This document shows, one piece after another, positions 9,644 through 17,922 of a stretch of 53,611 nt of DNA. Each line of letters opens with the position of its first letter. The first letter of the stretch is position 1. This DNA is from an uncultured Desulfobacterales bacterium (GTDB taxonomy: Bacteria; Desulfobacterota; Desulfobacteria; Desulfobacterales; SURF-7), in assembly GCA_964578935.1 (NCBI GenBank), contig CAZOEW010000001.1, positions 1 to 53,611 on the forward strand. Reading direction: 5' to 3'. Position numbers and translations under genes: made by a program. A model generated the notes under the pieces. That model ran no database searches, was not told the DNA's origin, and saw nothing but the letters and a program-made list of their open reading frames with translations.

Positions 9644-11296
9644 CTAAGAATTGAGAATCTTCTTGGCACTGTCGTCATTAACATCAGAGACATGAGGAAT
9701 ACCTGTCTCTTTAGCAGTCTCCCGGTTTCCAGAGAAGATGTCCGATCTTTCGATCCGGTTCAGAGAGAATTTTCTTGCTCCTGCCATGAGCTGCTGCAGG
9801 CCGCAAGCCAGTTTATCGGCCAAGGTCCAGAATGCGATTGCGCCGTAAGGAATATGTTTCATTTCATCTTTTCCTACCTTTTTTTCCACATCAAAATAGG
9901 AGGCAAAAATTTCCTTGGCGCTGTTTCCTACCTGTTGTACTGTTTTCGGCAGCTCATTCCAGTTGCCGCTTACGTCTGCCCGCCTTTCAGGATGAAGCGC
10001 CCCTTCAATGTTCGAGCCGACAAAACCCGGAATCATGATCGCTCTTCCCATGCAGACCAGTTTTGTAAACGGCGCACCAAGTGCAAGCGCCTTGAATATA
10101 TGGTCCTCAAGGGCAAAACCCCCGGCAAAGGACATATCAACGACATGCTGTCCTTTCGCTGACAGGATGCCGGCATACTCGTGTGCCTTTGAATGCAGAA
10201 GTATTGAAGGTACACCCCAGCTCTGCATCATGTTCCACGGGCTCATTCCGGTACCGCCGCCGGCGCCGTCAATTGTCAAGAGGTCAAGATTCGCGTCTGA
10301 AGCAAACTTTATCGCCATTGCCAGTTCTTCCATTCCATAAGAACCGGTTTTCAGGGTGATTCTTTTAAATCCGATGCTTCTGAGGTAATCCACACTGCTC
10401 ATGAAATCTTCACGCACCTGATCGACCGTACTCAGATTGGTTCCTCCAAGACGGCTGTGCCGGGCAAAGGATTTAATTGAACCGTTTTCAAAAGCTTTCT
10501 GGACTTCAGGAACGGTTGGATCCGGGTCGACTACATAGCCTCGCTCTTTCAGAAATATAGCGTAATCAAGACTTTCCACCTGTATCTCGCCGCCGATATC
10601 CTTGGCACCCTGACCCCACTTCAATTCGATAATGCATTTTTCGCCATATTTATCCACTACGAATTCCGCAACGCCATTGCGGGTATCTTCAACATTGAGC
10701 TGGACGATTATGGCGCCATAACCGTCAAAGTATCGAAGATATCCATCGATGCGCCTTTCCAGCTCCGGAGCGCTCTTGATTTTTCCTTTTTTCGCGGCAC
10801 CGGTTCCGATTTTCGATTGGCGGTCAACCCCCACAACATTTTCACCGATTACGACGGGAATGCCGCAAAGCGCTCCGCCGATTGCAAATGAATCCCAGTA
10901 TTTCTGGGCGATAAATGTCGAGCCGAGTGCTCCAGTCATCAGGGGCATGCGGATTTTTGTTTTTACTTTCGCGCCGAATTCCGATTCAAGGCTGACCTTT
11001 GGAAAGATGCAGTCATCCGGATCATTGCTCATGCCATTGCTCAGGCCATGTGCGCCATAGGCATACCCCTGGATTCGAAGCGAGTTGTAGGAAACGCCGA
11101 CATGGGTCGTATTGTTGGCGCCGGCTGTTACCAGACCGAAACTTCTTGGATAAAGCAGCTTTCGTCCGACAAGGCTGGAAAGCCATGTCTCGCATTTTCC
11201 CTGACAGTCTGCGCGGCAGAGCGTACACAGACTGGATTCTGCGGCATTACCCCGATTCGCGGTTCCAAGTGTATCATTGTTTTTTGAAAATCTCAT
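9644..11296 (-). CDS. FMN-binding glutamate synthase family protein (GltB2-like domain)
   Basis: ORF 9644-11317. ATG 11296 (MRFSKNN) has AAAGGAGAG upstream. Motifs: ELKWGQGAKDIGGE and IDGAGGGTGMSP (compare KxxQGAKPGxGG / GGTGASP of the GltS FMN domain). N-terminal Cys cluster CTLCRADCQGKC. Confidence 0.85.
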   Translation of the reverse strand: MRFSKNNDTLGTANRGNAAESSLCTLCRADCQGKCETWLSSLVGRKLLYPRSFGLVTAGANNTTHVGVSYNSLRIQGYAYGAHGLSNGMSNDPDDCIFPKVSLESEFGAKVKTKIRMPLMTGALGSTFIAQKYWDSFAIGGALCGIPVVIGENVVGVDRQSKIGTGAAKKGKIKSAPELERRIDGYLRYFDGYGAIIVQLNVEDTRNGVAEFVVDKYGEKCIIELKWGQGAKDIGGEIQVESLDYAIFLKERGYVVDPDPTVPEVQKAFENGSIKSFARHSRLGGTNLSTVDQVREDFMSSVDYLRSIGFKRITLKTGSYGMEELAMAIKFASDANLDLLTIDGAGGGTGMSPWNMMQSWGVPSILLHSKAHEYAGILSAKGQHVVDMSFAGGFALEDHIFKALALGAPFTKLVCMGRAIMIPGFVGSNIEGALHPERRADVSGNWNELPKTVQQVGNSAKEIFASYFDVEKKVGKDEMKHIPYGAIAFWTLADKLACGLQQLMAGARKFSLNRIERSDIFSGNRETAKETGIPHVSDVNDDSAKKILNS

Positions 11297-11371
11297 CTTT
11301 ACTCTCCTTTTGTTCAATACGGTTAAGACCGGCTGTTTTTTTCAACCGAATCTCTAAAATTTCAAAGGCTA

Positions 11372-12701: not shown

Positions 12702-13829
12702 ATGTGCCGTCTGTTCGCAATAACATCGGATACGTTTATCTCTCCTGCCATGGGTTTCAAGGGATTGAATGCCATGCGGGAAGGATATGACGGCTCCGGC
12801 GTCGGCCTTCTATTGCGGGATCTTGGCGGCTCATTTGAAGCGATTAAAGAATTTCCGATCTTGTCCGGAATTTTCAGTGATTCAGGCTTGCGGACTCTTG
12901 ATCAATTCATGTTGGATATGGGGTTTACAACAAAATACAAAATTTCTTTCAAATTGCCGAAAGATCCGCCAAGAGGCGTTCCAAGAAGAGATATCTACCT
13001 GATCAGGGCATATGATTATCCCCTTGACTGGGAAAGGATGGAACAGAAAGAGCTGCATGATAATCTGATGAGGGTCCGGCTCCACCTCAAGAAAAAGGGC
13101 GAAGTAAACAGAGATATGATTATTTTTTCCTTTTGGCCGGATACCATTATGATTAAAGAGATCGGGGACCCCATTCAGGTGGCTGAATATTTACAGCTGG
13201 ATCGGAAGGAGCTCACGGCCCGGGTTATAATGGTCCAGGGGCGGCAAAATACCAATCATGATGTAGATCTCTATTCCTGCCATCCGTTTTTTCTACAGGG
13301 TTTTTCAACCATGGCAAACGGCGAGAACACCGCATTTGTAACGAATCGTGAATTTTTGATTTCAAGGGGGTTTCCGGGGTATAACGGTTATAGGTCTGAC
13401 TCGGAAATTTTTACACACACCCTGCATTATGCATGTTCAACACTGAAGCTTGGAATCGAAGCCTTCAAACATATCATAACACCTTTAAACCAGGAGTTGC
13501 TTGGTGATCATCCGGATGCCTCTTTTCTGAGGCATTTGAAATATTCCTGCAGGCAACTCATCATTGACGGACCCAATTGCGTTATCGGTTGTCTTCCGGA
13601 CCATTCCCTTTTTATGGTACAGGATCGAAAAAAACTCCGGCCGGGAGTTGTCGGCGGGGATCAGGGAATGTTTGTTTTCTCCTCTGAGGTTTGCGGTCTG
13701 GATGCCGTGATACCGGATCGCGACAAAACCAGAGATTTTCAGCCGATGCATCTGGATACGGTGGTTGTTGACCCGGAGCGGCAGGGTATCAAAATCTGCC
13801 GTCAGACAGATTCATTTCTGAAGAATTGA
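12702..13829 (+). CDS. class II (Ntn) glutamine amidotransferase, GltB1-like
   Basis: 375-aa ORF starting MCRLFAITS (Cys right after the initiator Met is the Ntn nucleophile) with AAGGAG upstream. It is paired with the FMN-domain gene nearby. Confidence 0.85.
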   Translation: MCRLFAITSDTFISPAMGFKGLNAMREGYDGSGVGLLLRDLGGSFEAIKEFPILSGIFSDSGLRTLDQFMLDMGFTTKYKISFKLPKDPPRGVPRRDIYLIRAYDYPLDWERMEQKELHDNLMRVRLHLKKKGEVNRDMIIFSFWPDTIMIKEIGDPIQVAEYLQLDRKELTARVIMVQGRQNTNHDVDLYSCHPFFLQGFSTMANGENTAFVTNREFLISRGFPGYNGYRSDSEIFTHTLHYACSTLKLGIEAFKHIITPLNQELLGDHPDASFLRHLKYSCRQLIIDGPNCVIGCLPDHSLFMVQDRKKLRPGVVGGDQGMFVFSSEVCGLDAVIPDRDKTRDFQPMHLDTVVVDPERQGIKICRQTDSFLKN

Positions 13830-13855: not shown

Positions 13856-14815
13856 TCAGGCCTCATGAGCTTTTCCGATTAAATCAACAATGCCCACCTT
13901 TTTCTTTTTAAGGTAAGTGGTTATTCCGCTATGGATCTCAACAAAAACATCGGGGTTTACAAACCAGGATGTTCCAATGCCCACCGCAGTTGCACCTGCA
14001 AGAACATATTCGATCACATCCCGCCAGTTTGAAATCCCTCCAATCCCGATGATCGGTATTTGCTTGCGGCGGCATTCCGGTATTTTTTTAAAACAGTCAT
14101 ATACCATAAAAAGGCCGATCGGTTTTATCGCCGGACCGGAAAGCCCTCCCACCACATTTCCCAGAAGCGGCTTGCCGGTATCGGTATTGATCGCCATCCC
14201 CCGTATGGTGTTAATCATGGAAAGCGCATCGGTACCTCCGGAAATAGCCGCTTTTGCGGGCACTGTAATATCGGTTATGTTCGGTGTCAGTTTGGTGATG
14301 ATAAGAAGACGTTGATCAACCCGTTTTTTTACGGTTTTAACGATGCGCTCCACCAGTTTGGGATCGGTTCCAAAAGCAGTGCCTCCTTTTTTGATATTCG
14401 GACAGGAGACATTGATCTCAATACCGGAAATAAGTTGACTCAGATCGGTATCACTCAGGCAGGAAGCAAGCTCACCGAATTCCTCAACAGAGTCTGCAGA
14501 AATGTTCACAAAAATCGGCAGATCAAAGTTGAGAAGACCGGGAAGTTCTTTTTTTGTAAAAAATGCGGCACCTTCATTTTGAAGGCCGATGGAATTGAGT
14601 ATGCCGGTCTGTGTTTCAACAATTCTAAATTCTTTGTTTCCTTCTTTGGGCTTCAGGGTAACGCCTTTGGTTACAAAGGCACCCAGTGCTGATACGATTT
14701 TGGGACTCTTTTTCAACACTTCGATTTCATTGCCATGCCCTGATGTTCCGGAAGCTGTCATTAACGGGCTTCTCAGTTGTTTGTCTTTAAGTTTCACATG
14801 GAGGATGTTATTCAT
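13856..14815 (-). CDS. pyrD: dihydroorotate dehydrogenase, class 1B catalytic subunit
   Basis: 319-aa ORF with SPLMTASGTSG, LNSIGLQNEG, EINVSCPNIKKGG, GGLSGPAIKP and IIGIGGI. The start ATG overlaps the stop of the upstream ORF (ATGA). Confidence 0.9.
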   Translation of the reverse strand: MNNILHVKLKDKQLRSPLMTASGTSGHGNEIEVLKKSPKIVSALGAFVTKGVTLKPKEGNKEFRIVETQTGILNSIGLQNEGAAFFTKKELPGLLNFDLPIFVNISADSVEEFGELASCLSDTDLSQLISGIEINVSCPNIKKGGTAFGTDPKLVERIVKTVKKRVDQRLLIITKLTPNITDITVPAKAAISGGTDALSMINTIRGMAINTDTGKPLLGNVVGGLSGPAIKPIGLFMVYDCFKKIPECRRKQIPIIGIGGISNWRDVIEYVLAGATAVGIGTSWFVNPDVFVEIHSGITTYLKKKKVGIVDLIGKAHEA

Positions 14816-15885
14816 AGTTGTTCCCAGTCAATTTCTTTTGAGTCAAAAAGAGGTCCATCAACACATACCCGGGAGTATCGGCTGCCTTTACTGCCTTTCC
14901 TGGTTCGGCAGACACAGGACATGCAGACACCGATTCCGCATCCCATTCTTTTTTCCAAAAGGACTTTCATCGGAATATTGAACTTTGTAGCGATATTTTT
15001 TAATGCGATCAGCATCGGTTTTGGACCACAGGCAAGAATCAAAATGGATTCCGTTTGTTTTAAACGGTTCAAAAACAGGCTGTAATGATCCACAACCAGA
15101 CCGACATGATAGTTTTTATGGTTTATCTTATCGCTCAGAATTTCGTTCTCCGTTGACTCCCTGGACAAGAAGATTTCATCCGGATTCAATCCGATTTTCG
15201 ATAATTCATTGATGTAAACATATGCTTTTTCGGATTCATCTGAAAACGTTTTTCCATAAGGAGCTTCCCGTAATGATTCAATCCGGTCGATACCGATAAA
15301 CGCTTTGAGTTTAAAAGAGTAAAATTTGAGGGCCTGCCCGAAAAAAACCAGGGGCGCCATGCCGACGCCGCCGCCGATAAGGTGCACTTCATCCACATTG
15401 TCAGACCGCCATTTGGGTATATTGATGAATTTTCCAAGAGGTCCCAGTATTTTTATCTGATTTCCGGGATTCAGGTTCTTCAGTTCATTTGTACCGATTC
15501 CGTCTTCTATGATTTTATAAAAGATTTCAAATTGGTGCGGATAAACCGTGTTGGTTATCGCTGCCAATTGAGCCGGGAGATGCAGTTTGTTATGATAACC
15601 CCATTCAAAATGTTTATAGTATGCCCGCTGAATTCCAAAAGGTCTTTTTAGAAAAGATCGGGCAGAGAGGTCCATCGCATGTTTCCGGTATTCAGATATC
15701 CGTTTTTCAGGAGAGCGGTTTCGTTTTTTTCGGTGACCTTCGGGCAGGGTGTCTATCATCACAAACTGTCCCGGACCGATCGTATGCATGTCCGGAGCAG
15801 TGAACTGCAGTTTGAAGTGCATGGGTTTGCCGTCCAATCCAACCGGCGTGTTTTGGATCACTTCCGCCTTGAAATGTTTTATCCG
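14812..15885 (-). other. PyrK-like domain of the fusion ORF (residues ~680-1036)
   Basis: Ferredoxin-reductase-like FAD/NAD motifs and a C-terminal Cys4 [2Fe-2S] motif. Internal ATGs at 15927 (M666) and 15918 (M669, with GGAG 3 nt upstream) could yield a stand-alone PyrK. Confidence 0.75.
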
Positions 15886-17922
15886 GTGTTTGGTATTTTT
15901 CCCCAAATCGGTTTTCATCGGCTCCATGTTGAAGAGGTGCCCGAATTGATCTGGATCGACCTCCGCTGCTTTTTTACAAATATCTTCAAAGCAGACATAG
16001 AAGCCCCTTGGCCATTTATCTGCCTGACTGATGTGTCTATAGGATTTCATCACACTTTTGTGCGGGAAGATCAGATAACAGATAATTTGAAACTCATGCC
16101 TGTCTTTTTGGAAAATATCCTCTGCTGCCTGTTTCAGGGCTTTTTCTTTTTCCGGGGAATAAAAACAGAAAAAGATTTTTCTCCCGTTTTTGTTTTCCGC
16201 AATAAAGTCGATATGGCCAAGGCTGCTGTCATGGATTTTGAAATCAGCAGTTTCTGTATGGATATCCAGAGTCGCGTCATGAAAGGAGCCTTCTGCAACG
16301 GATTTAATTTTATAATTATCTTTTAACAGGATGGCGCGAAGGAGGGACAGGCATATTCGATTGTATGCCCTGCGATTTATCCTTTTATCGGATATTGTTT
16401 CCCGGATTTCCTGCACGGATCGTTCGGCAAGAAGATTCTGCAATGAGGGTTTGATTAAATTCCCGGCATGGCATTTCACTTTTTCCGGCTGATCCGACCT
16501 TTCGTGGAAAGCGGCCATTTGAACAAATAATTCCACTTCGCGATAATCGTTCTTTCCAGATTTTTTTAAAATTTCTTTTTCAGTTTGCGACTTCCAGGTA
16601 AGAGAATAATAGTGATCCGACACACGGACTTTCTGTTTGTTTGACTTTTCGGCGATATCTGGGAAATTCGATCCTGCCGTCTCTGTTTTATACCCCATTT
16701 TTAAAAAAGTATGATGCAGTGTTTCCCCGTATTCTGTATTTTTGGTTCTATGCGCTAAAATTATTTTGCATGAATGGCCTGAGTGTTTCCTGATCCGGCT
16801 TAAAAAAGGCTTCAGTTTCTGAATATCGTCTTTTTCCGGAAGCGCTTCTGAATGCCATTTCAATAAATCCGTACAATTCATTTTAAGCCAGGCGCCCCAG
16901 AACGCTGATAAAATCGAATAATGATTGTCTCTATTATAAAGCGGATCAATCAATACATGCGTAATTTTTAGTTTTCGGGGAAAGGGTTCGGATCTTAAAT
17001 CCGTAAGATGAATATATGCCTGATCATTGGTGTTTTCAAATTCATCCATTGAATTCGCAAAGCCTGTAAAACCCAAAAGGGAATTTAATTCCTTCTTGCA
17101 GGTTAACACGGCAGCAAACTGCTTCTCAAAAGCCTTCCAGACATTGATCTCCTGTCCGGGTGATGGTGAAAAGCGATCAGAAGTTTTCCACCAGCGTGAC
17201 GCAGCGCCGGATTTCGCTGTTGTATTTTGTATCGTGATGCAGTTCGTAAGAATTCCCGTAAACACATATTGAAGTACTTCCCTGCATCTTACAGACGAGA
17301 TTTTATGAATTGCATTCAGCAGTTCAGCCAAAGACGCTAAATTTCGGCTTGTAAAAAAATCTTGAATGAAGAGGGCATCTTTTTTTTTAGAAAGGGTAAT
17401 TTTTTTTTCAGGATACCAATATTCGGGCGGAGCCTTCGATTCTGAAAGCTGTCGCTGGATCTGGAATTTTGACAGGCGCTTCAACTGGTTGAATCCACAA
17501 TATTGACAGGTGATCCTGACAGATTCAGGCCGTTCTTTTCGTCCTTCTTTCACCCATTTCAAATATTCGTAGTTTACTGGTTTTTTACATCCAGGGCATA
17601 TACCGGTATATCGGTTTTGTATATTTCCGGAAACTTTTTGTTGAATTTCTTCAAAAGCCTTTTTTAAAGAATATAAACCAACGGGCTGGGCTAAAACTTT
17701 TATCAGGAAAACAGCCACTGGATTGATGTCACCGGCCAATACTTTCGAACCGCGTTGAAGTGCCGTAACAACAGGAGCGGCTTCCCTGCAAAACAAATCA
17801 AGCAGAACATCTCCTGGCTGCATGTCTTTAAAGATTCTGTGGAGTTCATTGGACTGCTTTTGCCCCCAGTATGGATGAGAACGGGTAACACAATGTAAAA
17901 AAGGGGGCTGTTTCATATTCAA
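14812..17922 (-). CDS. pyrK: 1036-aa fusion ORF: methylase-like Zn-ribbon module + uncharacterised middle + PyrK-like FAD/[2Fe-2S] electron-transfer domain
   Basis: Uninterrupted ORF. Residues ~680-1036 are PyrK-like (GPGQFVMID, LKRPFGI, LIGGGVGMAPL, CGPKPM, CGIGVCMSCVC..VCVDGP). Residues 1-~420 are methylase-like (see separate features). The gene symbol applies to the C-terminal domain only. Confidence 0.8.
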   Translation of the reverse strand: MNMKQPPFLHCVTRSHPYWGQKQSNELHRIFKDMQPGDVLLDLFCREAAPVVTALQRGSKVLAGDINPVAVFLIKVLAQPVGLYSLKKAFEEIQQKVSGNIQNRYTGICPGCKKPVNYEYLKWVKEGRKERPESVRITCQYCGFNQLKRLSKFQIQRQLSESKAPPEYWYPEKKITLSKKKDALFIQDFFTSRNLASLAELLNAIHKISSVRCREVLQYVFTGILTNCITIQNTTAKSGAASRWWKTSDRFSPSPGQEINVWKAFEKQFAAVLTCKKELNSLLGFTGFANSMDEFENTNDQAYIHLTDLRSEPFPRKLKITHVLIDPLYNRDNHYSILSAFWGAWLKMNCTDLLKWHSEALPEKDDIQKLKPFLSRIRKHSGHSCKIILAHRTKNTEYGETLHHTFLKMGYKTETAGSNFPDIAEKSNKQKVRVSDHYYSLTWKSQTEKEILKKSGKNDYREVELFVQMAAFHERSDQPEKVKCHAGNLIKPSLQNLLAERSVQEIRETISDKRINRRAYNRICLSLLRAILLKDNYKIKSVAEGSFHDATLDIHTETADFKIHDSSLGHIDFIAENKNGRKIFFCFYSPEKEKALKQAAEDIFQKDRHEFQIICYLIFPHKSVMKSYRHISQADKWPRGFYVCFEDICKKAAEVDPDQFGHLFNMEPMKTDLGKNTKHRIKHFKAEVIQNTPVGLDGKPMHFKLQFTAPDMHTIGPGQFVMIDTLPEGHRKKRNRSPEKRISEYRKHAMDLSARSFLKRPFGIQRAYYKHFEWGYHNKLHLPAQLAAITNTVYPHQFEIFYKIIEDGIGTNELKNLNPGNQIKILGPLGKFINIPKWRSDNVDEVHLIGGGVGMAPLVFFGQALKFYSFKLKAFIGIDRIESLREAPYGKTFSDESEKAYVYINELSKIGLNPDEIFLSRESTENEILSDKINHKNYHVGLVVDHYSLFLNRLKQTESILILACGPKPMLIALKNIATKFNIPMKVLLEKRMGCGIGVCMSCVCRTRKGSKGSRYSRVCVDGPLFDSKEIDWEQL
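16663..17922 (-). other. N6/N4 DNA-methylase-like module with internal Zn ribbon (residues 1-~420)
   Basis: Motifs: HPYWGQK..GDVLLDLFCREAAPVVTALQRGSKVLAGDINPVA (motif I-like), CPGC..CQYC ribbon, FFTSRNLASLAELL, and LIDPLYNRDNHYSILSAFWGAWL (DPPY-like). Confidence 0.55.

What the first reader, a model, noticed from the sequence alone, without database searches (positions are those of the whole stretch)
14812..17922. Giant PyrK: a methylase-like Zn-ribbon module and an unknown middle region fused in-frame to the DHODH-1B electron-transfer subunit and coupled to pyrD
Stand-alone PyrK proteins are roughly 250-300 aa. Here one uninterrupted 1036-aa ORF carries a recognisable PyrK domain only in its last ~357 residues (GPGQFVMID, LKRPFGI, GGGVGMAPL, CGIGVCMSCVC..C). 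It ends in an ATGA overlap with an apparently canonical pyrD.

The first ~420 residues resemble Zn-ribbon-containing N6/N4 DNA methylases. From memory, the pattern H-P-Y-W-x-x-K, D-x-F-x-x-x-x..G-D-I-N-P-V-A, F-x-x-R-x-L, D-P-x-Y..Y-x-x-L-S-x-F..W-L fits the COG1743/DUF1156-type family. Those enzymes are normally found in restriction-modification or defence contexts. Residues ~430-680 are unassigned.

I know of no described coupling of a nucleic-acid-methylase-like fold to a flavin/[2Fe-2S] electron-transfer protein of pyrimidine biosynthesis.

Three readings are possible:
- A regulatory or moonlighting domain that tethers DHODH to nucleic acid.
- A redox-dependent nucleic-acid or nucleotide-modifying activity. 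The DHODH fold family also includes dihydropyrimidine dehydrogenase, which reduces pyrimidine bases.
- A decayed defence gene that lost its stop codon, with real PyrK made from an internal start (ATG 15918, M669, GGAG 3 nt upstream).

One sampled line from the N-terminal part is AT-rich (18/60 G+C at 16561-16620), versus 28/60 at 15301-15360 in the PyrK part. This may hint at a different origin.
Basis: partly seen in the sequence, partly recalled or inferred. Interest (0 to 1): 0.75.

Follow-up and report, generated by a model that had tools for sequence, protein, structure and literature searches.

The report
Giant PyrK with dead methyltransferase module
The electron-transfer subunit of a pyrimidine-synthesis enzyme (DHODH-B PyrK) is fused here to a restriction-modification-type DNA methyltransferase that has lost its catalytic motifs; the window's copy is a degenerate member of a widespread and apparently undescribed family whose other members mostly keep an intact methyltransferase.

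Summary
ORF 14812..17922(-) encodes one 1036-aa protein that ends in an ATGA overlap with a canonical class-1B pyrD.

It has three modules:
- Residues 1-445: a Zn-ribbon N6A/N4C DNA-methyltransferase fold, homologous to R-M/BREX-PglX-type enzymes (hhalign E 8e-74).
- Residues 446-680: not "unknown". This is the uncharacterised N-domain shared by a large clade of 520-620-aa "long PyrKs".
- Residues 681-1036: PyrK with all cofactor motifs intact.

The fusion is neither an artefact nor a recent read-through. About 30 cluster representatives down to 26% identity share it (Desulfobacterota, an anammox planctomycete and others). pyrD follows directly in 10 of the 11 fusion loci with enough downstream sequence, and the modules co-diverge.

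Most members keep DPFxGxG and DPPY. The window's sub-lineage has lost the SAM-binding glycines (FCREAA), and the window has also lost DPPY (DPLY). dN/dS is 0.36-0.47 for the MTase module, about 0.6 around the dead motifs, and 0.1 for PyrK.

Best reading: a working PyrK that carries a domesticated, catalytically dead pseudo-methyltransferase. The role of that module is unknown; it may be non-catalytic or on its way to being lost. No literature on this fusion was found.

The parts
14812..17922 (-). Whole giant pyrK ORF (1036 aa from TTG 17922; probable start ATG 17916; stop 14812-14814)
   Evidence: The orthologous full-length ORF is found in L001/L002 (77% identity over the whole protein, 71% over the N-terminal 690 aa) and L007 (88% over the N-terminal 690 aa), which come from independent assemblies.
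16588..17922 (-). Module 1, residues 1-445: Zn-ribbon N6A/N4C DNA-methyltransferase fold of R-M/BREX-PglX ancestry; here a pseudo-methyltransferase
   Evidence: PADLOC MTase_II E 1.5e-13 and PglXI E 1.5e-8. hhalign against stand-alone MTases gives E 8e-74, with homology ending at residue 442. Foldseek hits to viral DNA MTases. Domain cores have pLDDT mostly 80-95. dN/dS is 0.47 (CI 0.36-0.62) against P0002 and 0.36 against L007.
17779..17799 (-). Degenerate motif I (SAM-binding loop): D42-L-F-C-R-E-A48 in place of the family's D-P-F-C-G-G-G
   Evidence: All other members with this region present, about 130 of the roughly 145 scanned, keep GxG. Within the sub-lineage the loop erodes stepwise: GEA (L008), AEA (L007), REA (P0002 and the window).
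17497..17598 (-). Zn ribbon inserted in the target-recognition region (C109, C112, C139, C142)
   Evidence: The four cysteines are invariant in 21 family members. The Zn/TRD sub-region, residues 101-300, is the best-constrained part of the module, with dN/dS 0.20-0.31.
16936..16947 (-). Degenerate motif IV (catalytic): D326-P-L-Y329 in place of DPPY
   Evidence: L007, P0002 and L008 keep DPPY. Other lineages carry DPPG, DPPC or DPPS.
15883..16587 (-). Module 2, residues 446-680: helical bundle plus an alpha-beta-beta-beta-alpha-beta core. This is the uncharacterised domain that forms the N-terminus of the 'long PyrK' clade.
   Evidence: Homology to the N-termini of P0008, P0012, P0034, P0124 and others. 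No Pfam or PDB sequence hit. pLDDT is above 90, and pTM is 0.86 for the model of module 2 plus PyrK. dN/dS is 0.23.
14815..15882 (-). Module 3, residues 681-1036: PyrK (FNR-like FAD/NAD module plus C-terminal [2Fe-2S] domain) with two clade-specific insertions in the FAD barrel
   Evidence: PF10418 E 6.7e-15 and PF00970. PDB 1ep1_B/5ksw_B by sequence. Foldseek 5ksw_B TM 0.74. Motifs RPFGI 760, GGGVGMAP 850 and C995..C1020. dN/dS is 0.09-0.11.
13856..14815 (-). pyrD, class-1B dihydroorotate dehydrogenase catalytic subunit, translationally coupled by an ATGA overlap
   Evidence: NF005574 339.7 bits (cut-off 269) and PF01180 E 1.7e-65. Overlap confirmed. The same arrangement is seen in 9 of 10 group-1 giant loci tested, 3 of 3 long-PyrK loci and the one group-2 locus.
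15916..15927 (-). Candidate internal starts M666 (ATG 15927) and M669 (ATG 15918), with GGAG 3 nt upstream of the latter
   Evidence: The spacer is too short for a typical Shine-Dalgarno (my knowledge). M669 is Val in P0002/P0005 and not conserved in the family. No promoter signal above chance. Listed for completeness; use of these starts is not supported.

Best explanation
The ORF is translated from its 5' end as one ~118-kDa protein.

The C-terminal 356 residues are a functional PyrK. Electrons taken from dihydroorotate by the FMN of the co-translated PyrD pass through the PyrK [2Fe-2S] cluster to FAD and on to NAD+. This mechanism is inferred from conserved cofactor motifs, fold and operon structure, together with what is established for L. 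lactis DHODB.

The protein belongs to an old family in which a complete restriction-modification-type DNA amino-methyltransferase was fused upstream of PyrK. The MTase has motif I, then a Zn-ribbon/TRD, then motif IV, and was originally followed by a nuclease-like domain. In most members the MTase motifs are intact, so those proteins are probably bifunctional.

In the window's sub-lineage the SAM-binding glycine loop is destroyed (GGG to REA), and in the window DPPY has also become DPLY. The N-terminal module here is therefore a pseudo-methyltransferase. It is kept in frame because PyrK translation depends on it, and it remains under moderate purifying selection, strongest on the Zn-ribbon/TRD. 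The most likely reason is a non-catalytic role, such as nucleic-acid or partner binding, or support for folding and assembly of the complex. Otherwise it is a slowly decaying relic heading for the deletion that produced the 520-620-aa long PyrKs elsewhere.

Shown: domain homologies, motif states, family breadth, pyrD coupling, and the selection pattern.
Inferred: DHODB activity, loss of MTase activity, and any non-catalytic role.

The fusion is real and old:
- Syntenic orthologues in independent assemblies.
- About 25 representatives of 1015-1065 aa align over residues 10-689 at 26-39% identity, and a second fusion group of 1035-1200 aa exists.
- The taxa span Desulfobacterales, Desulfocicer, Desulfobulbia, Smithella and an anammox planctomycete.
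- pyrD follows directly in 9 of 10 group-1 giant loci tested and in the one group-2 locus.
- Divergence of the MTase and PyrK modules is correlated (Mantel r 0.58, p 0.0005).

MTase ancestry:
- hhalign E 8e-74.
- Stand-alone relatives hit PADLOC PglX/PglXI (down to E 9e-113), MTase_II and REase_II.
- Fold matches to viral DNA MTases.

Catalytic death in this copy:
- Motif I is FCREAA and motif IV is DPLY.
- Every other member scanned with the region present keeps GxG.
- dN/dS is about 0.6 around both motifs, with confidence intervals that touch 1.

Full-length translation:
- There are no stops and at most one single-codon indel at dS 0.36-0.43, whereas about 15.8 stops are expected under neutrality and 0 of 2000 simulations stayed open.

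Residual constraint:
- The MTase module has omega 0.47 (CI 0.36-0.62) and 0.36. The Zn/TRD sub-region has 0.20-0.31.

Dispensability elsewhere:
- Verified long PyrKs lack the module and have unrelated upstream genes, yet they sit next to giants in the PyrK tree.
- Motif IV has decayed independently to DPPG, DPPC or DPPS in other lineages.
Against: - No experiment exists. DHODB activity, loss of SAM binding and the size of the protein made are all inferred.
- The PyrK part is divergent and stays far below the NCBIfam PyrK equivalog cut-offs (98.8 bits against 314). It carries two insertions of unknown role.
- I could not check whether the genome has a second, canonical pyrK.
- Because stops upstream of an essential domain are lethal, the open frame does not by itself show that the module has a function. 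Omega of 0.4-0.5 could reflect selection only against misfolding.
- Non-canonical SAM binding cannot be excluded from sequence alone.
- One relative (L013) has a giant pyrK without an adjacent pyrD.
- The NJ tree behind 'repeated loss' is crude.
Confidence: 0.7

Rival explanations
1. Pure relic. The N-terminal 445 residues have no function of their own in this organism. They are a decaying passenger, kept open only because PyrK is translated through them, and constrained only against toxic misfolding. The lineage is on the way to the deletion that produced long PyrKs.
For: Both catalytic motifs are destroyed. Omega is about 0.6 in the motif-bearing sub-regions, with confidence intervals reaching 1. 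GC3 is lowest in this module. The module has been lost completely in several related lineages.
Against: Omega for the whole module is significantly below 1 in two comparisons, and is 0.2-0.3 in the Zn-ribbon/TRD. The four Zn cysteines and the FTxRNL, EKNVW and W345 positions stay identical to the family consensus. Four diverged genomes of the sub-lineage all retain the module at full length or up to a contig end.
Confidence: 0.2
2. Still an active bifunctional enzyme. The N-terminal module binds SAM in a non-canonical way and methylates DNA or RNA, so the protein is both an orphan methyltransferase and PyrK.
For: The fold and most family-invariant positions are retained. The rest of the family looks catalytically competent: PF01555 scores above its gathering threshold in P0126, P0153, P0156 and P0159, and DPFxGxG plus DPPY are intact.
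Against: Motif I reads G-x-G to R-E-A, putting charged and bulky residues where the SAM methionine moiety packs, and motif IV reads DPLY. The window protein has no Pfam MTase hit above threshold. Selection is relaxed exactly around these motifs.
Confidence: 0.05
3. Recent read-through or an assembly artefact. Two separate genes (a defence methylase and pyrK) were joined by loss of a stop codon or by misassembly, and the real PyrK is made from M666/M669.
For: There are in-frame ATGs at 15927 and 15918, with GGAG nearby. One database protein (P0005, 374 aa) starts at the equivalent Met.
Against: P0005 is a contig-end truncation: L003 begins 5 nt before its ATG and reads in frame as N-M-E-P. The same continuous ORF is present in independent assemblies and in about 30 divergent representatives. 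The junctions between modules are conserved. No stops accumulate upstream. M669 is not conserved. Promoter-like sites are at chance level.
Confidence: 0.03

Closest known systems
PyrK, electron-transfer subunit of class-1B dihydroorotate dehydrogenase (Lactococcus lactis DHODB; PDB 1EP1-3, 5KSW; background in PMC8097209)
   Same: FNR-like FAD and NAD(H) modules followed by a C-terminal four-Cys [2Fe-2S] domain (PF10418). The gene is translationally coupled to a class-1B pyrD. The best structural match is 5ksw_B.
   Different: - It is four times longer, with 680 extra N-terminal residues in two modules.
- It has two clade-specific insertions in the FAD barrel: about 35 aa after GQFVMID and about 35 aa after RPFGI.
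- It scores far below the curated PyrK equivalog cut-offs.
'Long PyrK' proteins of 520-620 aa in Desulfobacterota, Nitrospirota and Bacteroidota. They are in databases as 'hypothetical protein' or 'DHODH electron transfer subunit' and are not described in the literature I could search.
   Same: They share the middle domain plus the PyrK with the same insertions, and the same pyrD coupling.
   Different: They lack residues 1-445. The window protein is the longer, probably ancestral architecture.
Restriction-modification / BREX-type Zn-ribbon DNA amino-methyltransferases (PADLOC PglX|PglXI and MTase_II models; Pfam PF01555-type motif I)
   Same: Homologous over about 430 residues (hhalign E 8e-74). 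They share the motif order I, Zn-ribbon/TRD, IV and the conserved FTxRNL, EKNVW, DPPY and SEFWGxWL blocks.
   Different: The window copy lacks the GxG loop and the second Pro of DPPY. It has no restriction or BREX partner genes nearby, and it is fused to a metabolic redox protein. The stand-alone relatives carry a C-terminal REase-like domain instead of PyrK.
   Same: Both are Zn-ribbon-containing DNA methylase-like proteins. Relatives of the window module give weak local matches.
   Different: The window protein has no hit. Relatives reach at most 48 bits against a cut-off of 1000. The relationship is distant at best, not membership.
Known multi-domain PyrK-like fusions (NCBIfam PRK12778 'DHODB NAD-binding subunit/glutamate synthase' and PRK12775/12779), and MnmC (FAD oxidoreductase plus SAM methyltransferase; from my own knowledge)
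   Same: They set a precedent for PyrK-like modules fused to other domains, and for a flavoprotein fused to an MTase in a single polypeptide.
   Different: Those PyrK fusions join redox modules to each other. MnmC's two domains act on the same tRNA substrate. No functional link is known between a DNA MTase and DHODH.

Membership tests
DHODH class-1B PyrK | C-terminal [2Fe-2S] domain with four Cys ligands (PF10418) | tested here: met
   PF10418 55 bits (gathering threshold 23.9), E 6.7e-15. C995, C1000, C1003 and C1020 are present and invariant in 48 relatives.
DHODH class-1B PyrK | FNR-like FAD-binding barrel (RxFS-type motif) and NAD-binding GGGxGxAP | tested here: met
   RPFGI at 760 and GGGVGMAP at 850. 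PF00970 22.4 bits (gathering threshold 21.1). Foldseek 5ksw_B E 1.7e-12, TM 0.74.
DHODH class-1B PyrK | Encoded next to, and partnered with, a class-1B pyrD | tested here: met
   ATGA overlap with pyrD. pyrD scores 339.7 bits on NF005574, above the 269 cut-off.
DHODH class-1B PyrK | Reaches the curated NCBIfam PyrK equivalog score | tested here: not met
   The best score is NF000799 at 98.8 bits against a cut-off of 314. This is a divergent PyrK clade with insertions, so equivalog-level identity is not established by HMM.
DHODH class-1B PyrK | DHO:NAD+ oxidoreductase activity with PyrD | not testable with these tools
   Needs an enzyme assay or genetic complementation.
N6-adenine/N4-cytosine DNA amino-methyltransferases (R-M / PglX type) | Class-I SAM-MTase fold homologous to family members | tested here: met
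   hhalign probability 100%, E 8e-74. PADLOC MTase_II E 1.5e-13. Foldseek hits to viral DNA MTases at E 7e-6 to 5e-5.
N6-adenine/N4-cytosine DNA amino-methyltransferases (R-M / PglX type) | Motif I, the (D/E)xFxGxG SAM-binding loop | tested here: not met
   The window has D-L-F-C-R-E-A. Every other family member scanned with this region present keeps GxG.
N6-adenine/N4-cytosine DNA amino-methyltransferases (R-M / PglX type) | Motif IV, the (D/N/S)PP(Y/F/W) catalytic tetrapeptide | tested here: not met
   The window has D-P-L-Y. DPPY is retained in L007, P0002, L008 and most giants.
N6-adenine/N4-cytosine DNA amino-methyltransferases (R-M / PglX type) | Pfam PF01555 above its gathering threshold | tested here: not met
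   The window protein has no PF01555 hit. Relatives do reach it: P0126 at 40.2 bits, P0153 at 77.2 and P0156 at 52.5, against a threshold of 26.7.
DUF1156 anti-phage methyltransferase (COG1743 / NF042963) | Match to the DUF1156 family models at the curated score | tested here: not met
   The window protein has no hit in Pfam or NCBIfam. Relatives score at most 47.8 bits against a cut-off of 1000.
PD-(D/E)xK restriction-endonuclease-like fold (for the middle domain) | alpha-beta-beta-beta-alpha-beta core with the D...(D/E)xK catalytic residues, or a significant profile or structure match | tested here: inconclusive
   - The predicted topology fits.
- The best hhalign match is to the nuclease-like C-domain of the stand-alone MTases, but at probability 1.3%, E 0.04.
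- There is no Pfam or PDB hit, and the fold search was uninformative.
- Catalytic residues are not conserved; only F585 and F587 (protein numbering) are invariant across both alignments, and the long-PyrK-only alignment adds Tyr520 (Y76 in A6 numbering).

The most novel reading that the evidence does not exclude
The family records the domestication of a complete restriction-modification protein (MTase plus nuclease-like domain) as a nucleic-acid-sensing appendage of DHODH-B. In this reading de novo pyrimidine synthesis is physically or allosterically coupled to DNA: its methylation state, replication, or invading DNA. Members with intact motifs would also be true DNA methyltransferases whose dosage is locked to pyrimidine supply. 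The window's dead-MTase copy would retain only the binding or regulatory function.
Probability: 0.15. Interest if true: 0.85.

Novelty: new variant of a known kind. Interest (0 to 1): 0.66.

Why it matters
PyrK and DHODH-B are textbook enzymes, and R-M methyltransferases are among the best-catalogued protein families. Even so, a fusion of the two is spread over several phyla, strictly coupled to pyrD, and appears to be undescribed.

If the intact members are active, they are orphan DNA methyltransferases whose expression and stoichiometry are tied to an essential nucleotide-biosynthesis enzyme. That would be an unexpected link between epigenetic or defence machinery and pyrimidine metabolism.

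The family also offers a clean natural series for studying how a defence gene is domesticated and then eroded:
- a stand-alone MTase-REase;
- an MTase-REase-PyrK fusion;
- the giant PyrK;
- motif-dead giants such as this window;
- the long PyrK, with the MTase deleted.

In practice, annotation pipelines currently label these proteins either 'hypothetical' or plain 'PyrK'. Both labels hide the module.

Tried and rejected
- The word-indexed homologue search with the family profile returned nothing new. It had also missed the whole family at the first attempt. Only the exhaustive HMMER search revealed the family.
- The fold search of the full model against the PDB listed only FNR/PyrK hits, so the MTase and middle domains were invisible. 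The viral library rescued the MTase fold but gave nothing usable for the middle domain.
- Direct profile tests of homology between the middle domain and the nuclease-like domain of stand-alone MTases were not significant. I therefore do not claim that homology.
- P0005, a 374-aa 'stand-alone' PyrK at 82% identity, looked like evidence for an internal start but is a contig-end truncation.
- Horizontal acquisition inferred from composition is rejected. The GC3 dip is small, and the module is shared with relatives at dS above 0.4 and across phyla.
- An internal promoter or terminator is rejected; the sites are at chance level.
- The DUF1156 assignment is rejected.
- Model coordinates are not exposed, so contacts between domains, and between the MTase pocket and the flavin, could not be measured.

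Full report
**Observation**

The minus-strand ORF 14812..17922 is uninterrupted and encodes 1036 aa from the first possible start, TTG 17922. The database cluster for the same protein starts at ATG 17916 and gives 1034 aa. Its stop overlaps the start of the next gene as ATGA.

That next gene (13856..14815) is a canonical class-1B pyrD: NCBIfam NF005574 scores 339.7 bits against a cut-off of 269, and PF01180 has E 1.7e-65.

The last ~356 residues are a PyrK:
- PF10418 has E 6.7e-15, and PF00970 is above its threshold.
- Sequence matches to L. lactis PyrK 1ep1_B and 5ksw_B.
- The best structural match of the AlphaFold model is 5ksw_B, at E 1.7e-12 and TM 0.74.
- RPFGI, GGGVGMAP and the four cluster cysteines are present.

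**The N-terminal module (residues 1-445)**

Pfam alone gives only sub-threshold hits, but three independent lines show real homology to DNA amino-methyltransferases:
- PADLOC MTase_II (E 1.5e-13, residues 16-348) and PglXI.
- A profile-profile alignment to a family of ~820-aa stand-alone methyltransferases, with probability 100% and E 8e-74. It covers residues 11-442 and stops sharply there.
- Fold matches of the model to viral adenine-N6 and cytosine-N4 DNA methyltransferases.

The stand-alone relatives are restriction-modification or BREX-type enzymes. They hit PADLOC PglX|PglXI down to E 9e-113 and MTase_II at about 1e-65, and the C-terminus of P0160 hits a Type II restriction-enzyme model at E 7e-12.

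The window protein has no DUF1156 hit, and relatives reach at most 48 bits against a cut-off of 1000.

**The 'unassigned' middle (residues 446-680)**

A search with the PyrK part alone showed that it belongs to a large clade in which most members are 460-630 aa. Their N-terminal extensions are plainly homologous to window residues ~455-680, sharing blocks such as NRKAYNR..., DFVAEN.G.RIFFCFY, ICYLI and KWPRGFF.

Three such 'long PyrKs' on long contigs are genuine. Each is followed by an overlapping pyrD and preceded by unrelated genes.

The domain has no Pfam family and no PDB sequence relative. A second model of middle domain plus PyrK, built on a 48-sequence alignment, is confident (pLDDT 83, pTM 0.86). 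This suggests a fixed packing of the domain on PyrK.

Its predicted core topology (alpha-beta-beta-beta-alpha-beta) resembles the restriction-endonuclease fold. Its best profile match in the stand-alone MTases is their nuclease-like C-domain, but that match is not significant (probability 1.3%, E 0.04), and the fold search was uninformative. The assignment therefore stays open.

**Not a one-off**

The word-indexed search found only one other fused protein: P0002, which is 71% identical over the N-terminal 690 aa and syntenic in two independent JGI assemblies.

The exhaustive HMMER search found 720 relatives. They include about 25 cluster representatives of 1015-1065 aa that align over residues 10-689 at 26-39% identity and end in a PyrK Fe-S domain.

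A second, more distant group of 1035-1200 aa consists of the entire stand-alone MTase plus its nuclease-like domain, fused to PyrK (hhalign E 2e-146 over positions 9-789 of 823). The one full-length locus of this group that I recovered is also followed by an overlapping pyrD.

In species-representative genomes the giant type occurs in Desulfobacterales, Desulfobacterium, Desulfocicer (including a MAG assigned to D. vacuolatum DSM 3385), Desulfobulbia, Smithella and an anammox planctomycete. The window itself is closest to a Desulfobacterales MAG (L007, 88% identity).

pyrD follows directly in 9 of the 10 giant loci tested, which include L001. L013 is the exception.

Across 17 full-length giants, divergence of the MTase module correlates with divergence of the PyrK module (Mantel r 0.58, p 0.0005). 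In a crude NJ tree of the PyrK part, giants are interleaved with long PyrKs, including the three verified ones. Taken together, this favours an old fusion inherited vertically, with the MTase module deleted several times. It does not fit repeated gain.

**State of the methyltransferase**

Family-wide, motif I (DPFCGGG) and motif IV (DPPY) are the consensus. The four Zn-ribbon cysteines are invariant, as are FTxRNL, EKNVW, D326-P327 and W345. Of about 145 relatives scanned, every one with the region present has GxG, except the window protein and P0002.

Within the window's sub-lineage the loop erodes stepwise: GEA (L008), AEA (L007), then REA (P0002 and the window). Only the window has also changed DPPY to DPLY. 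Other lineages have independently lost the motif-IV aromatic residue, giving DPPG, DPPC or DPPS.

The window's module is therefore homologous to methyltransferases but fails two of their defining features. I classify it as a pseudo-methyltransferase.

**Selection**

I compared the window with P0002/L001 and with L007. Values below are dN/dS.

| Region | vs P0002 | vs L007 |
|---|---|---|
| MTase module | 0.47 (bootstrap CI 0.36-0.62) | 0.36 |
| Zn-ribbon/TRD | 0.31 | 0.20 |
| Motif I sub-region | 0.62 (CI touches 1) | 0.31 (CI touches 1) |
| Motif IV sub-region | 0.64 (CI touches 1) | 0.62 (CI touches 1) |
| Middle domain | 0.23 | 0.40 |
| PyrK | 0.11 | 0.09 |

There are no stops, no frameshifts and at most one single-codon indel. 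Neutral decay at the observed dS would give about 16 stops in the MTase module, and 0 of 2000 simulations stayed open.

One caveat applies. Because the module lies upstream of an essential domain in the same frame, the open frame is expected whenever translation starts at the 5' end. It therefore argues against an internal-start-only model, but it does not by itself prove that the module has a function. Only omega below 1 bears on that, and selection against misfolding could contribute to it.

**Internal start and artefact**

GGAG does lie 3 nt before ATG 15918. However, the spacer is short, M669 is Val in P0002 and P0005, and neither Met is conserved in the family. Promoter-like sites are at chance level.

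The apparently stand-alone P0005 is cut off by its contig end.

Composition differs little. MTase GC3 is 0.39, against 0.46 +/- 0.03 for the other genes in the window.

**Mechanism**

Most likely (confidence about 0.7), the protein is made at full length and works as the PyrK of DHODH-B. Electrons flow from dihydroorotate to FMN on PyrD, then to the [2Fe-2S] cluster, then to FAD and NAD+. This is established for L. lactis DHODB (PMC8097209) and inferred here.

The N-terminal module in this lineage no longer methylates. It either keeps a non-catalytic role, as the better-constrained Zn-ribbon/TRD hints, or it is a slowly decaying passenger.

Rival readings:
- A pure relic (about 0.2).
- A still-active methyltransferase (about 0.05).
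- A read-through or assembly artefact (about 0.03).

Why an R-M methyltransferase should be tied to PyrK at all remains unexplained. That is the interesting open question for the family, most of whose members look catalytically competent.

**Novelty**

Three full-text searches found no description of a PyrK-methyltransferase fusion or of the long-PyrK N-domain. The parts are known kinds; the architecture, its breadth and its erosion series are new. I rate it a new variant of a known kind, with interest 0.66.

Noticed in passing
L013:3508-6714 (uncultured Desulfobacterales MAG, CAZRLQ010000043): This is a giant pyrK with motif IV DPPS that is not followed by pyrD. Downstream lie a cold-shock-like small ORF and unrelated genes. 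It is the only uncoupled case among the 11 fusion loci (10 group-1, 1 group-2) with downstream sequence.
   Followed up: partly
window 12702-13829 (+): A 375-aa ORF beginning MCRLFAI... sits on the opposite strand between pyrD and the GAF-ANTAR regulator. It has no Pfam hit at E <= 1e-4. The syntenic relative L001 has only a ~590-bp gap with a 69-aa ORF at this position, so this is a lineage-specific insertion next to a Glu_synthase-domain gene (9644-11317).
   Followed up: partly
L004:1-3630: A complete Type I R-M system (HsdR, HsdM, HsdS) plus four unannotated small genes lies about 2.4 kb upstream of a verified long pyrK-pyrD pair. This may be coincidence, but it is notable given the R-M ancestry of the giant PyrK module.
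   Followed up: no
window 14815-15882 (PyrK residues ~725-800): The whole long/giant PyrK clade carries two insertions in the FAD-binding barrel. One is a variable, low-confidence ~35-aa loop after GQFVMID. The other is a highly conserved ~35-aa segment after RPFGI (HRAFYxxFxxxYLxxLxLPxxLAxxLHTVxP). Their function is unknown; they may form the docking surface for the middle domain.
   Followed up: no
window 16588-17922 compared with L001: Synonymous divergence from P0002 is lower in the MTase module (dS 0.36, and 0.23 in codons 1-100) than in the middle domain and PyrK (0.54-0.63). The comparison with L007 does not show this pattern. It is unexplained; regional rate variation or past recombination are possible causes.
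   Followed up: partly
window 17011-17039 (-): The best promoter-like match in the region (TTGAAA-17-TATATT, 10 of 12) lies on the coding strand inside the MTase module. The overall count of such sites is at chance level, so it is probably meaningless.
   Followed up: no
L022-L072 (Asgard archaea: Thor-, Heimdall-, Hod-, Promethearchaeota; also Chloroflexota and Armatimonadota): The genome scan with the MTase motifs returned many loci in Asgard archaeal MAGs that match only the motif-I region (residues ~37-130, 25-36% identity). I did not examine what these proteins are.
   Followed up: no
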